DNA of 15,022 nucleotides from Elusimicrobiota bacterium (GCA_027340875.1 DAIENX010000021.1:1-15022), one strand, 5' to 3'. Numbered from the stretch's first letter, positions 9,916 through 14,072 are shown. A program made the numbers and translations. Notes: a model not told the origin generated them from the letters alone.

Positions 9916-10503
9916 TCAGAAGCGGGACAACGGGAGCACTCGCTCCCCGAACTTGCCGGGGGTGCTTTCCAGCGGGTTGACCGACTTCCTGCTCCTGGTT
10001 ATCCGCAGGGGCCAGACGCCGGCTTTTCTGGCTTGTATGATGCCGGAATCGGAGGGGGAGGCGTAAAGGATGAATCTGCCCTTCTCAAGGGCGCGGTATT
10101 TGTCGTCCTCGCTGGAGGTGAAGCGGAACTCGTCGGCCAGCTTTCTCCAGGAGGCCTCCAGGCTGTCGGCCCCCTCCGGGCCCCGGTCCAGGAAGAGCGT
10201 TACCTTAACCCCCAGGGAGCGCAATAGCCAGGCCGTCAGCCAGGGCACCGGCTTGAGGCGCTCGAAGACGAACGAACGGTTGACCGAGTTCCAGTAGTCC
10301 GGACTCCCCGGCTGCAGCTTGTCCTTGGCCGCCGTCTGGAAGGCCGGGGTGGAATAGACCAGCCCGTCGTCGTATTCGAAGCCGGCGCGGAAGCCTATCA
10401 GCGTGTTTACGCTGAAGATGATGCCCCAGGCGCCGGCCAGCATGGCGAACGCGCGGAACCTTCCGAACCATCTGGCGAAGAAGTCCCGGAGGGCCTGGAA
10501 CAT
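9916..10503 (-). CDS. Class B acid phosphatase (AphA, HAD)-like protein with N-terminal membrane anchor; catalytic residues degenerate
   Basis: GFEYDDGLVYSTPAF aligns to AphA GFDIDDTVLFSSPGF. The C-terminus LYASPSDSGIIQARKAGVWPLRITRSRKS....PGKFGERVL..S.F aligns to [28 protein letters not shown]....AGAFGEEVI..S.Y. TGATG overlap with the upstream gene. Confidence 0.8.
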   Translation of the reverse strand: MFQALRDFFARWFGRFRAFAMLAGAWGIIFSVNTLIGFRAGFEYDDGLVYSTPAFQTAAKDKLQPGSPDYWNSVNRSFVFERLKPVPWLTAWLLRSLGVKVTLFLDRGPEGADSLEASWRKLADEFRFTSSEDDKYRALEKGRFILYASPSDSGIIQARKAGVWPLRITRSRKSVNPLESTPGKFGERVLPLSRF

Positions 10504-11951
10504 CAGTCCGCCGTTGCCCTAACGAGCCTGCCGCCGGCGGGCGGGCCGGTCACGCCCTGGCGCGCCAGGCACCAGCGTACGGCGTCCCGCACGCGGTGCT
10601 TAGAGTTCGCGAACTCCATCGCGCTCGAGAGCACCGGGTTGTCCCTGCCGCTGGCCAGCGAATCCGGGACTGCCAGATGGTATACCCTGCCCGGCACCAG
10701 GGGGCCGTTCTCGCCCTCGGTCTTCTCCAGAGCCTGGCCTCTGAGGTAAAGCTTCAGGCCGGAGACCGTTATGCCGTAGGGATGCAGGCCGTCGAGCGCC
10801 CGTTCCAGGTCCTCTCCGCGGATCTTGACGAAGACCAGGCTGGATTCGCGGGGGAAGGAGGAATAGAGGTGCCCGAGCGTGACCGGTCCGCTGGAGAGAG
10901 GGGCGGCCACCTCGTCGATGCCGATGATGGCGGCGTTGGTCCTGGCCCAGCGCCGCATGCAGTCGGCGGTGAAATCCGCGGCCGGATAGTCCCCGCCGGC
11001 CTGCAGCGGAAGAGGGGCGGAAAGGAAACCTATCTTCTTGCTGAAATGGGTCGCCGCCGCTTTGCGGTGCCTTTCCACGACCGTGAGCACGGCCGGAGAT
11101 TCGCCCAGCTTCGCGACGTCCAGCTCCACTTTCTTCAGCTTGACGTCAGTGACGCGGCCCGTGTCCGGATCGAGGTAGAGGGTTATCCTGGCGGCGTCCT
11201 TCATCCCGTGCCCGGCCCCGGCTATCCAGGCGCGCTTGACCTTGAACGGCTTTTTGATCGAGGGGTCGTCGGTGATGACCAGGTCGACCCTGGGCAGCTT
11301 GGAAAGGAATGTGCGGAAGTACTCCTGCCCGGCCGGGGCTGCGGGATTTATGTCCAGCAGCATTACTATTATCTGGGCGCCGGCTTCACGGAGAGAGTGT
11401 ATGGCCCTCTCCGCCTCGTAAGTTTCCTTCTCGAGCTTGTAGTTAGGGAGGTATTTCCGGGAGTTGGGCTTTTCCGGGGAATTTATCAGCAGTGAGAAGA
11501 AGCCCACCTTCCTGCCCCCGGCCTCTGAGACGCTCCAGCTCCTGAGGAAGTCCGGTTTGCGGTCGCTGCGGAGGTAGAGGTTGGACGCCAGCAGCGGGAT
11601 GGAGGCGGCTTCGGCGAGCCGCTCGAGCTCGTCGGGCGAGAGCGCCAGCTCTTCCATGCCGATGGCCGCGGCCGAATAGGGCACGGCGGCCGCGCATTCC
11701 GCCGCGGCCGTGCCGCCGGTCAGCCGGCCCTCCGGGGTGGCCGAGATCCAGTTCCCCAGGTCAACCGCCAGCTTCGGCTTCCGCTCCGAATCGTAAAGGT
11801 TCTTGAAGGCGGCGAAGCCGCCTCTGCCGTCCTCGGACCACAGCCGGCCCTGGGACCTGGCCGTGGCGAAGACCACCAGCTGCTCCTTCCTGCCGCAGCC
11901 GGCCAGCAGCAGGGCGGCCAGCAGCGCGGCGGGGATCGCTAATCGAGGCGT
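10503..11951 (-). CDS. 5'-nucleotidase-fold lipoprotein, catalytically degenerate; probable ACG start (482 aa)
   Basis: Colinear with the upstream paralogue (GGFAA, DLGN....TPEG, P.L..N.Y, AD.MRR, GE.L, VSGLK, GGR.VR). An in-frame lipoprotein signal (T)PRLAIPAALLAALLLAGC lies upstream of the GTG at 11876. The gene call is firm; the start is less certain. Confidence 0.82.
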   Translation of the reverse strand, partial: TPRLAIPAALLAALLLAGCGRKEQLVVFATARSQGRLWSEDGRGGFAAFKNLYDSERKPKLAVDLGNWISATPEGRLTGGTAAAECAAAVPYSAAAIGMEELALSPDELERLAEAASIPLLASNLYLRSDRKPDFLRSWSVSEAGGRKVGFFSLLINSPEKPNSRKYLPNYKLEKETYEAERAIHSLREAGAQIIVMLLDINPAAPAGQEYFRTFLSKLPRVDLVITDDPSIKKPFKVKRAWIAGAGHGMKDAARITLYLDPDTGRVTDVKLKKVELDVAKLGESPAVLTVVERHRKAAATHFSKKIGFLSAPLPLQAGGDYPAADFTADCMRRWARTNAAIIGIDEVAAPLSSGPVTLGHLYSSFPRESSLVFVKIRGEDLERALDGLHPYGITVSGLKLYLRGQALEKTEGENGPLVPGRVYHLAVPDSLASGRDNPVLSSAMEFANSKHRVRDAVRWCLARQGVTGPPAGGRLVRATAD

Positions 11952-13486
11952 ACTATCCTCCCTCCTTCGGGGCGGGACTTTATCGGATTGGACATGATGT
12001 CCTTGATCAGAAGGTCGCGTATCGGCAGCATCGTGTCTGCGGCGTTCTTGTCCTCCGAGAAGACCGCGCCGCCCGTTCCCCCGGTGGTGAGATAGTTGTT
12101 GGTGGCGACCTTGAACCTCTCGCCGTCCCCCACCGGCTTTCCGTCGCGCTCCAGCGTGATGTTGGCCGGATCGTCGGAGGGGGACCTGAAGGTCACTTTC
12201 AGTCCTGAGACCTGCAGCTTGGAAAATCCGCCGGGCAGGTTGGCCGCCATCAGGCGGCGCAGCTGCTCTCCGGTAAGCGTCAGCGTCACCAGCGTGTTCT
12301 CGAAAGGCATGACCTGGAAGATGTCGCGCATGCGGATGTCCCCTGCCTTCAGGTCGGAACGTATGCCGGGGGTGTTCTGGAACGCGACGTCCGCGCCGGA
12401 CTGCCTGCGCATCGCGTCGGTGAACCAGTTGCCTATGTCCGAGTCGAGGCCGGAGCGAGAGGAGCCCAGGTCCACTTCGGAGCGGCCTATCACCTTGCCC
12501 ATCTCCTTGTCCACCTTGGCGCTGAAGCCTTTAAGCGTCTGGACGACCTTCTGGTCCTCGCCGGTGACGTCGGTCCAGAGCGGGAGCAGCTCGTCGGAGT
12601 CCCCGGTCAGCTTGCCGGTCTTGTCGTCGAAGTTCAGCGAGATCCTGCTGACGTCTGTGAGTCCCCAGTAGCTTTCCGCTATCAGCGCGCCGCTGACCGG
12701 GTCGCGGTAGCCGCGCGTTATGCCGGCGTGGTTGTGGCCGCCTATCACCACGTCCGCTCCGGACGCCCGGGCTATCGCGAGCGTGCTGTCCGGCGGGATC
12801 TCGCCGTCATACGTCTTGCCGGTGAGGTCCTTTTTCCCGGAGAGGCCCAGGCCGAAGCCGGTATGGGAAAGCACTACGAGCGCGTCGGGTTTCTCGTTCT
12901 CGCGGATGATCCTGGCCCAGCGGGCGGCTTCCTGGCTCTCGTCCCGGAACTCCAGGTGCTTCACGTTGACCGGGAGCGTGGAGGTGGCGGTATGCTTGCC
13001 GGCTATGCCCAGCACCGCGATGCGTTTGCCCGCTACCGTGACCACCGTGTACGGCTTCAGGTAATCCGGGGCTTTTCCGGTCTCCTTCACGTAGACGTTC
13101 GCGCCCAGCCAGGGGAAGCTGGAGGCCTTTACCATGGTCCTGAGGCTGTCCTCGGTGTAGTCGTAGTCGTGGTTCCCGATGTCGCAGGCGGAGTAGCCGA
13201 GCTGGTTCATCATCGCGGCCGTCGCCATGCCCTTGGTAAGGGTCCCTTCCGGGGTGCCCTGGAAGGTGTCGCCGGAATCGAGCAGGATGTGCGGATTCTT
13301 GTCCGCGCTGACCAGCGCCGAGAGCGCCGCGAAGCCGCCGATGGTGCGGGTAGAATTCTCCTTGTCCCATTTGGCGGGGCGGGAGTAGTACCAGCCGTGC
13401 GCGTCGCTGGTGTGATAGATGTCCACGGTCAGCGACCACGCGGAGAGGGGCAGGGCGAGAAGCAGGGCGGTCAGCAGCTTTTTCAT
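11939..13486 (-). CDS. Secreted bifunctional metallophosphatase / 5'-nucleotidase (UshA-like), catalytically intact
   Basis: Signal peptide. Motifs HTSDAHG, DSGDTFQG, GNHDYD, LSH, GGHNH; C-domain N.PGIR, PFEN, ATNNYL. SD GGAG overlaps the upstream stop. Confidence 0.95.
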   Translation of the reverse strand: MKKLLTALLLALPLSAWSLTVDIYHTSDAHGWYYSRPAKWDKENSTRTIGGFAALSALVSADKNPHILLDSGDTFQGTPEGTLTKGMATAAMMNQLGYSACDIGNHDYDYTEDSLRTMVKASSFPWLGANVYVKETGKAPDYLKPYTVVTVAGKRIAVLGIAGKHTATSTLPVNVKHLEFRDESQEAARWARIIRENEKPDALVVLSHTGFGLGLSGKKDLTGKTYDGEIPPDSTLAIARASGADVVIGGHNHAGITRGYRDPVSGALIAESYWGLTDVSRISLNFDDKTGKLTGDSDELLPLWTDVTGEDQKVVQTLKGFSAKVDKEMGKVIGRSEVDLGSSRSGLDSDIGNWFTDAMRRQSGADVAFQNTPGIRSDLKAGDIRMRDIFQVMPFENTLVTLTLTGEQLRRLMAANLPGGFSKLQVSGLKVTFRSPSDDPANITLERDGKPVGDGERFKVATNNYLTTGGTGGAVFSEDKNAADTMLPIRDLLIKDIMSNPIKSRPEGGRIVRLD

Positions 13487-13495
13487 CAGGGGCTC

Positions 13496-14035
13496 CTAGA
13501 TAAGGTAAAGGGATCCGGCGCAGCGCTCCAGGGCTTCGAAGACGGAGTCGAGTCCGGAGTATATGCTACTAAATTTGAGATTTAGCGGGAAACTCGAGGG
13601 GGAACCGGCGGCCGCCGCGGCGGAAAGGGCCAGGGAGAGGGCCTTGCGGCCGGTGGCGCAGTGCGCCAGCAGCTCGGCCGAGGCGGCGGCCCTGCCGGAG
13701 CGCGAGAGCAGGCGGGGGGTCAGGGAGCAGGCCCGCTGCAGGTGCAGCAGGGCTTCCCGGCTGGGAGAGTCAGGACGGACCTGCAGCAGCGCCATGTCGG
13801 AAAAGGTCTTCTCCAGCCTGGCGGCGAAGTCGTCGGCGGCGGCCAGCGCGCGCCCGGCTTCCTGCGAGGAACCGGCCGCCCGGGCCGAGTCCAGTTCCTT
13901 CCTGAACGGCCGCAGCAGGGTGGGCGCGGCCGCCGGTTCCCTTTCCAGGTCGCCCAGCGCTTCGCCGCAGCCTGTGACGGTCCCGAGCGTGGCGCGCAGC
14001 CGCTTATCGGTGAGTCTAAGCAGGAAACTCCGCAT
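13496..14035 (-). CDS. Divergent DUF47/PhoU-like helical protein
   Basis: LKFSSIYSGLDSVFEALERCA resembles the DUF47 C-terminal IKWKEIYE.LE...D.CEDVA; ALAAADDFAARLEKT...MALLQV resembles L...LDD..D..E......LYKI. Has its own promoter and sits 9 nt from the next gene. Confidence 0.6.
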   Translation of the reverse strand: MRSFLLRLTDKRLRATLGTVTGCGEALGDLEREPAAAPTLLRPFRKELDSARAAGSSQEAGRALAAADDFAARLEKTFSDMALLQVRPDSPSREALLHLQRACSLTPRLLSRSGRAAASAELLAHCATGRKALSLALSAAAAAGSPSSFPLNLKFSSIYSGLDSVFEALERCAGSLYLI

Positions 14036-14042
14036 AATAGCG

Positions 14043-14072
14043 ATGATATTTAATTGCCGCCGTCCCGGTCAA
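14043..14072 (-). promoter_or_regulatory. Sigma70-type promoter of the four-gene operon (leaderless)
   Basis: TTGACC (14072-14067), 18 nt, TATCAT (14048-14043), 7 nt, ATG. Confidence 0.75.

What the first reader, a model, noticed from the sequence alone, without database searches (positions are those of the whole stretch)
11874..11967. Probable non-canonical ACG start codon behind a double Shine-Dalgarno
Seen: the minus strand reads AAGGAGG-GAGG-atagt-ACG-CCT-CGA-TTA-GCG-ATC. ACG (11951-11949) lies 5 nt after GGAGG and 9 nt after AAGGAGG. It opens a textbook lipoprotein signal, (M)PRLAIPAALLAALLLAG-C. This frame has no ATG/GTG/TTG between the stop at 12533-12531 and the GTG at 11876, which falls after the lipobox. 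The SD is written in A-rich codons (GAA GGA GGG AGG ATA GTA) of the overlapping upstream gene, where ATG would change its R to C. Inference: ACG initiation, helped by translational coupling, keeps the pseudoenzyme substoichiometric to the active enzyme. Standard gene callers would miss the signal peptide.
Basis: partly seen in the sequence, partly recalled or inferred. Interest (0 to 1): 0.72.

Follow-up and report, generated by a model that had tools for sequence, protein, structure and literature searches.

The report
ACG-started lipoprotein gene in Elusimicrobia
In one branch of uncultured Elusimicrobia, a lipoprotein gene has lost its normal start codon and most likely begins at ACG, a start that gene finders do not accept, held in place by an upstream ribosome-binding motif that is conserved in the silent letters of the overlapping neighbour gene.

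Summary
Observation confirmed; ACG initiation is well supported by comparison, not shown by experiment. Contigs of 4 of 4 runs carry ACG. The gene is an intact, conserved, catalytically degenerate 5'-nucleotidase lipoprotein downstream of an active paralogue in Elusimicrobiales. Of 41 genus-level junctions, 10 have no ATG before the lipobox; all 10 keep GGAG-6 nt-ACG in frame, against 1 of 31 ATG-bearing ones (out of frame there). In the 9-genome main clade the silent letters that build the motif are the only such invariant columns (1/59 Gly, 1/29 Arg, 1/48 Val/Ile), while the codon on the upstream stop varies (TTA, ATA, TTG, CTA, CTG). Spacing matches the genome's SD peak, and signal-peptide length from ACG matches ATG orthologues. 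The 'double' SD is local to 2 of 10 genomes. The idea that ACG keeps the protein substoichiometric is untested; 31 of 41 relatives use ATG. No genome-wide ACG habit was found. This scan noted ACG starts before on other DNA (e1-789981, e1-5214144); ten literature searches showed no natural bacterial ACG start.

The parts
14043..14072 (-). sigma-70-like promoter match heading the four-gene unit (consensus match only)
   Evidence: TTGACC-18-TATCAT, 10 of 12
13496..14035 (-). gene 1: DUF47/PhoU_div-like (Pit accessory) protein, 179 aa
   Evidence: TM 0.83 to PF01865 clusters; no Pfam hit over cut-off
11939..13486 (-). gene 2: secreted 5'-nucleotidase-family enzyme, 515 aa, all five metal-site motifs intact; its last 4 codons and stop overlap gene 3
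   Evidence: (PF00149 + PF02872)
11961..11967 (-). distal AAGGAGG, 9 nt before ACG; present in 2 of 10 ACG genomes only
11957..11961 (-). proximal Shine-Dalgarno GGAGG (GGAG conserved in 10 of 10), written as Gly GGG + Arg AGR of gene 2
   Evidence: anti-SD CCTCC in 7 of 7 full 16S genes of the genus
11949..11951 (-). inferred ACG start codon of gene 3, written as third base of Val/Ile + first two bases of Arg of gene 2
11939..11941 (-). TAG stop of gene 2, 13-nt overlap with gene 3; the in-frame codon on it (TTA, 11942-11940) is the place where some relatives have ATGA
11895..11951 (-). lipoprotein signal peptide, 18 residues, lipobox LAG-C (Cys 11897-11895)
   Evidence: Cys present in every complete orthologue
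10503..11951 (-). gene 3: degenerate 5'-nucleotidase lipoprotein, 482 aa, 24% identical to gene 2 over 464 residues, metal ligands lost
11874..11876 (-). GTG used by gene callers; lies after the lipobox and is not conserved
9916..10503 (-). gene 4: AphA-like (class B acid phosphatase-like) protein, ATG in TGATG overlap with gene 3; motif reads EYDDG
   Evidence: (TIGR01672 E 9e-9, under cut-off)

Best explanation
Gene 3 has no ATG, GTG or TTG ahead of its lipoprotein signal and most likely starts at the ACG at 11951, with the conserved GGAG motif 6 bases upstream likely acting as its ribosome-binding site. Mechanism, step by step: (shown) the ribosome finishing the active nucleotidase stops 10 nt downstream of the A of ACG; (inferred) it clears local structure over the SD and a 30S subunit, fresh or re-initiating, docks on GGAG(G), placing ACG in the P site; (inferred from E. 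coli data) fMet-tRNA reads ACG with one mismatch and puts in Met at low efficiency; (inferred) the signal peptide is lipidated at Cys19 and the dead nucleotidase is membrane-anchored beside the soluble active one. History (inferred from alignments and trees): the ancestor started at an ATG on or next to the upstream stop; silent changes in the conserved G-R-I-V-R tail made GGAG-N6-ACG; the ATG was lost with a short deletion, and the motif has been kept by selection since. This happened in the ancestor of a 9-genome clade and, separately, in one other genome. Whether the weak start is selected for low output or is a frozen but sufficient fix is open; I put about 0.35 on selection for low output.
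For: 10 of 10 ATG-less vs 1 of 31 ATG-bearing junctions carry GGAG-6nt-ACG; among the 11 ATG-bearing ones where that place is in frame, 0 have both. ACG is the only codon one mismatch from ATG that all 10 share upstream of the hydrophobic core; in-frame stops 9 and 12 codons before ACG in two genomes bound the search. Silent-site test in the 9-genome clade: all-GGG 1 of 59 Gly columns, all-AGR 1 of 29 Arg columns, all third-base A 1 of 48 Val/Ile columns, each the focal column; all-GTA 1 of 26 Val columns in the six Val genomes; identity at four-fold sites is 0.52-0.67 between subclades. Internal control: the same G-R-I-V tail at the end of gene 3, which precedes an ATG gene, has GGG in 0 of 9 and ACG in 0 of 9. 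GGAG spacer 6 nt is in the genome's peak (44, 34, 27, 24 of 511 ATG starts at 5-8 nt; 1 at 15 nt). Signal length from ACG 16-21 vs 16-22 in 31 ATG orthologues, p 0.10. Gene 3 is as constrained in ACG pairs (second-position/four-fold difference 0.15-0.29, 5 close pairs) as in ATG pairs (0.15-0.27, 6 pairs). In E. coli ACG gives mostly Met-initiated GFP, in the 0.1-1% class (10.1101/063800, Results part 1 read). SD motifs raise re-initiation efficiency (PMC2268962, passages).
Against: No RNA, ribosome-profiling or proteomic evidence was obtained. The 10 genomes are at most two or three independent events, not ten. One ATG-bearing genome (L034) has the identical GGAGG-ATAGT-ACG out of frame, so the motif can arise without use. 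AGR at the Arg is common in ATG relatives too, so that site adds little. The second origin (L040) also has a 32-nt deletion at the gene's 3' end and may be early decay. In two clade members the codon on the stop is TTG or CTG and could serve there. ACG was in the weakest class in E. coli. A 13-nt overlap lies outside the commonest coupled spacings of -4, -1 and -8 (PMC12548453, PMC10666635, passages).
Confidence: 0.8

Rival explanations
1. Re-initiation at the codon overlapping the upstream stop (TTA in the window), the place of the ancestral ATGA; GGAG and ACG are kept for another reason such as an A-rich, unstructured spacer.
For: -4 overlap is the commonest coupled spacing (PMC12548453, passages); ATGA stands here in L023, L025 and others, and TTG/CTG in L005/L007.
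Against: The codon takes six forms in ten genomes (TTA, ATA, TTG, CTA, CTG, GTA), most two mismatches from ATG; it is 15 nt from GGAG, where 1 of 511 ATG starts has the motif; signal peptides would be 13-18 residues, shorter than ATG orthologues (p 2e-5), and without any positive residue in 2 of 10, while all 31 ATG orthologues have at least one.
Confidence: 0.09
2. Start-loss pseudogene, or a cytoplasmic form made from a downstream GTG.
For: The protein lacks catalytic residues; L040 carries two deletions; the window has a GTG 7 codons after the Cys.
Against: Nine genomes at 59-74% identity between subclades keep full-length frames, lipobox and hydrophobic core, with normal constraint. The first canonical codon after the Cys lies at +6 or +7 in three genomes, +21 to +56 in six and beyond +70 in one.
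Confidence: 0.04
3. C-to-U editing of the mRNA turns ACG into AUG, as in plant organelles (recalled).
For: It would explain strict conservation of ACG and normal output from a weak codon.
Against: The same edit would change the upstream enzyme's Arg to Cys or Trp on the same mRNA; C-to-U mRNA editing is not known in bacteria (recalled); no genome-wide ACG excess.
Confidence: 0.02
4. SD-stimulated -1 frameshift fuses gene 2 to gene 3.
For: Gene 3 is in the -1 frame and an SD-like motif sits inside gene 2.
Against: No X XXY YYZ heptamer or homopolymer run in the stretch scanned before the upstream stop (up to 90 nt) in 0 of 10; a fusion would bury a lipoprotein signal that all orthologues keep at the N-terminus.
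Confidence: 0.02

Closest known systems
Conserved near-cognate starts behind strong SD motifs: S. aureus infC (AUA), cvfC1 (AUU), ccpN (AUA) (PMC13009471, passages read)
   Same: Weak start codon held in register by a strong SD, conserved among relatives, missed by annotation; there it lowers output to about 10-30% of AUG.
   Different: Here the mismatch is at the second base (ACG); the site is written inside the coding tail of an overlapping gene; most relatives keep ATG; no experiment yet. The word ACG does not occur in that paper's main text.
Engineered ACG initiation in E. coli (Hecht et al., 10.1101/063800; Results part 1 and passages read)
   Same: ACG behind a strong SD yields full-length, mostly Met-started protein.
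   Different: Synthetic reporter at 0.1-1% of AUG; ACG is not among the annotated starts they list (ATG, GTG, TTG, CTG, ATT, ATC, ATA).
Translational coupling by termination-reinitiation or RNA unfolding (PMC12548453, PMC10666635, PMC2268962; passages)
   Same: Overlapping co-directional pair with an SD inside the upstream gene; short overlaps are enriched for subunits of complexes.
   Different: 13-nt overlap and a non-canonical codon; the classic -4 position has decayed.
UshA-type 5'-nucleotidases (PF00149 + PF02872; PDB 3ivd, 1ush)
   Same: Gene 3 aligns over its length with both domains (24% to gene 2).
   Different: All five metal/catalytic motifs are replaced in every orthologue group examined; it is a lipoprotein paired with an active paralogue across the order.
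ACG starts noted earlier by this scan on other DNA (fliG in Hydrogenedentota, pta in a Coatesbacteria relative, Bathyarchaeia; AI notes, not checked)
   Same: Conserved ACG at the SD-defined start place.
   Different: Those are described as lineage-wide or multi-gene habits; this is one gene, gained within one genus, with ATG-bearing sisters as a control.

Membership tests
SD-led near-cognate start (infC/ccpN type) | No ATG/GTG/TTG able to give the conserved N-terminus | tested here: met
   9 of 10 (L005 has a TTG on the stop)
SD-led near-cognate start (infC/ccpN type) | SD complementary to the lineage's anti-SD at usual spacing | tested here: met
   own genome lacks 16S, 7 of 7 full 16S genes of the genus end in CACCTCCTTT
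SD-led near-cognate start (infC/ccpN type) | Codon and SD conserved beyond protein-level constraint | tested here: met
SD-led near-cognate start (infC/ccpN type) | Ribosomes initiate there in vivo, with reduced output | not testable with these tools
   needs Ribo-RET, N-terminomics or reporters
SD-led near-cognate start (infC/ccpN type) | Regulatory use of the weak start (IF3 or growth dependence) | not testable with these tools
   no data; most relatives use ATG
Translationally coupled gene pair | Short overlap or spacing of stop and start | tested here: inconclusive
   13-nt overlap in 10 of 10, outside the -8 to +10 range used in PMC10666635
Translationally coupled gene pair | Downstream translation depends on upstream translation | not testable with these tools
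   GGAG predicted 43-100% paired in the 10 loci, no shared fold; only a hint
Bacterial lipoprotein (SPII substrate) | Positive n-region, hydrophobic core, lipobox with Cys | tested here: met
   weak match to a signal-sequence model at residues 5-22
Bacterial lipoprotein (SPII substrate) | Lipidation shown | not testable with these tools
   none
Active UshA-type 5'-nucleotidase (gene 3) | Dimetal motifs DxH, GD, GNH, H, GHxH (motif names recalled) | tested here: not met
   ARSQG, LGN, GMEE, LDIN, TDDPS in gene 3; intact in gene 2

The most novel reading that the evidence does not exclude
A natural, selected ACG start in bacteria that works as a dosage valve: coupling to the upstream enzyme plus a strong SD lets a second-position mismatch initiate at a set fraction, fixing the ratio of a membrane-anchored pseudo-nucleotidase to its active partner, and this is eased by an order-wide initiator tRNA with A29-U41 and C33 (50 of 50 examined) that relaxes start-codon checking.
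Probability: 0.25. Interest if true: 0.75.

Novelty: new variant of a known kind. Interest (0 to 1): 0.57.

Why it matters
ACG is outside the start codons that bacterial annotation accepts, and I found no natural bacterial case in print in the searches made. This locus gives a clean natural experiment: one gene, ATG in most species of a genus and ACG in one branch, with the initiation signal visible as constraint on silent sites of the neighbour gene. It can be tested directly with bicistronic reporters, and would show whether coupling rescues a codon that is near background in E. coli. It also shows an annotation blind spot: 23 of 25 database proteins of this branch lack their signal peptide, and N-terminomics misses such starts because the signal is cleaved (PMC13515050, passage).

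Tried and rejected
Genome-wide ACG habit: SD-preceded ACG near 5' ends 35 of 719 vs 4.35% in gene bodies, p 0.27; the 4-of-9 excess among genes without a nearby canonical start dissolved on inspection, three having an ATG downstream. The screen rests on my own gene caller (2377 genes) and misses short truncations. Era candidate (GGAGG-5nt-ACG, C107:13430): rejected, a GTG lies 12 codons upstream, 30 of 30 loci have a canonical codon and the nearest relative has GCG. Initiator tRNA as cause of the clade's ACG: not specific, the same arm is in ATG genomes across the order (scripts had faulty patterns). IF3: present, nothing odd seen by eye. DYW deaminase search: no match, but its controls were silent too, so uninformative. 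RNA evidence: no RNA holder listed. Shared RNA fold at the start: none evident. One origin for all ten: rejected, AU p 3e-97; first IQ-TREE attempts failed or timed out. Literature: ten searches, listings only unless a paper is cited; those aimed at a natural bacterial ACG start gave none; the library lacks most subscription papers, and supplements were not read (Hecht Table S5 could bear on annotated ACG starts).

Full report
The locus. The window comes from an Elusimicrobiales genome, judged by the record titles of its relatives. The minus strand carries a four-gene unit after a promoter-like site: a DUF47/PhoU-like gene, a secreted 5'-nucleotidase with intact metal motifs (13486-11939), a second nucleotidase-like gene (11951-10503) and an AphA-like gene. 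The second nucleotidase is 24% identical to the first over 464 residues and has lost every metal ligand in all three orthologue groups tallied, so 'pseudoenzyme' is fair. The unit reads as phosphate scavenging (inference).

The observation. Contigs from 4 of 4 runs of one study cover the ACG with no difference. Among 85 lipobox-type genes found by my screen of the genome, 84 have a canonical start and this one has none. The database protein for this gene starts at the downstream GTG and lacks the signal (P0003).

Orthologues. 41 of 43 genomes of the genus have the gene; one locus was cut at its 5' end and one was not fetched, leaving 39, to which I added 2 metagenome contigs that fall in the genus on the tree (five other metagenome loci were dropped as duplicates, two as cut). 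Of these 41 junctions, 31 have an ATG 16-22 codons before the lipobox Cys, on or just after the upstream stop. Ten have none. All ten read GGAG, six bases, ACG, seven bases, stop. Among the 31, GGAG occurs in 4, ACG in 7 and both in 1, where the ACG is out of frame. Outside the genus 50 of 50 junctions have ATG, GTG or TTG in range (30, 20).

Independence. Nine of the ten form one branch (92/88, unstarred; 100/100 with the ATG genome L003 included), made of four subclades 59-74% identical; the tenth sits inside a starred ATG clade, and one clade for all ten is rejected (AU p 3e-97). A tree of gene 3 alone nests L003 among the nine, so the count is two or three events and no test across ten genomes is valid. 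The tenth genome lost its ATG by a 14-nt deletion and also has a 32-nt deletion at the 3' end; it may be decay, and I give it little weight.

Selection on the signal. Within the nine, four-fold sites are 52-67% identical between subclades, yet the Gly is GGG in all nine (1 of 59 invariant Gly columns), the first Arg is AGR (1 of 29) and the Val/Ile ends in A (1 of 48); each single case is the focal column. GTA is 7.5% of Val codons in this genome and all-GTA occurs in 1 of 26 Val columns of the six Val genomes. The paralogous G-R-I-V tail at the end of gene 3, followed by an ordinary ATG gene, has GGG in 0 of 9 and ACG in 0 of 9. The AGR site is weak evidence, since many ATG relatives have it too.

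Which codon? The other candidate is the codon on the upstream stop, where some relatives have ATGA. It is TTA, ATA, TTG, CTA, CTG or GTA in the ten, following the upstream gene's last codon and stop. It lies 15 nt from GGAG, where 1 of 511 unambiguous ATG starts has the motif, against 34 at 6 nt. Signals counted from ACG are 16-21 residues and all have a positive residue, like the 31 ATG orthologues (p 0.10); from the stop codon they are 13-18 (p 2e-5) and two have none. ACG is the only near-cognate codon shared upstream of the hydrophobic core. The genus has an ordinary anti-SD (7 of 7 full 16S genes, four from ACG genomes). No slippery sequence was found.

The gene is alive. Reading frames, lipobox and core are intact, and the ratio of second-position to four-fold differences is 0.15-0.29 in five close ACG pairs and 0.15-0.27 in six ATG pairs. 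In the protein database, the branch holding the nine contains 25 proteins, 23 called without the full signal, against at most 7 of 95 elsewhere (some may be contig-edge fragments, and their DNA was not seen). One of the two exceptions, P0010, may be a return to a canonical start.

How it likely works. A 30S subunit docks on GGAG(G) as the upstream ribosome terminates 10 nt further on, and fMet-tRNA reads ACG with one mismatch. E. coli makes mostly Met-started GFP from ACG at 0.1-1% of AUG (10.1101/063800, Results part 1); an SD raises re-initiation (PMC2268962, passages); natural AUA/AUU starts behind long SDs give 10-30% in S. aureus (PMC13009471, passages). Coupling is inferred from geometry only. 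The purpose is open. For selection on low output: single changes at the stop overlap would give ATG or GTG in L005/L007, and Asp and Glu both occur there, yet ACG persists. Against: three quarters of the genus and all other relatives use a canonical start for the same pair.

Wider context. The genome shows no ACG excess; an Era candidate failed; one probable CTG start was found. The initiator tRNA has A29-U41 in place of the first of the three G-C pairs, C at 33, and mostly U1-A72, in 50 of 50 copies examined across the order for the anticodon arm. The first-pair variant is known from alphaproteobacteria and mycoplasmas (PMC5389676, passages); that C33 is unusual in bacteria is my recall. It cannot explain why only one branch uses ACG, but it may be a permissive background.

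Verdict. Real, selected and very probably an ACG start (0.8). It works like the known SD-led near-cognate starts, but in vivo initiation and regulation are untested. New variant of a known kind; earlier scan notes report ACG starts in other lineages, which I did not check and do not count as support. Interest 0.57.

Noticed in passing
G000:C97:30767-30843 (-) (L188); L189-L238: The only initiator-type tRNA found has A29-U41, C32-C33 and U1-A72; the same anticodon arm is in 50 of 50 copies examined from Elusimicrobiales families f1 and f2. C33 in a bacterial initiator tRNA is unusual by my recall.
   Followed up: partly
G000:C65:91876 (+) (L127, L158): Low-molecular-weight phosphatase-like gene has CTG, behind AGGAGG, where 27 of 29 relatives have ATG/GTG/TTG in an NTGA overlap (the other two have ATG one codon later): probable private CTG start.
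   Followed up: yes
window 10503-9916 (-): AphA-like gene with an N-terminal hydrophobic stretch; its motif is EYDDG in every orthologue where the pattern found the gene, Glu where the nucleophile Asp is expected (recalled): possibly a second pseudoenzyme in the same unit.
   Followed up: partly
L106-L125: The pair 'active secreted nucleotidase(s) then degenerate lipoprotein paralogue' is kept across the order, with two active copies in some genomes.
   Followed up: partly
window 14035-13496 (-): Elusimicrobiota-specific 179-aa protein with a predicted PhoU_div/DUF47 fold, heading the unit with no Pit transporter gene seen in the window.
   Followed up: partly
L034 (G030) junction: Identical GGAGG-ATAGT-ACG but out of frame with gene 3, which has its own ATG: a ready-made unused site in the clade from which the second ATG loss arose.
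   Followed up: partly
L027 (G001:C44): Gene 3's frame is open 517 codons upstream of the lipobox Cys, under almost all of gene 2; not examined.
   Followed up: no
G000:C41:3852 region (L080): infC has an AGGAGG eight bases before a TTG, so IF3 probably starts at TTG rather than ATT here (by eye).
   Followed up: no
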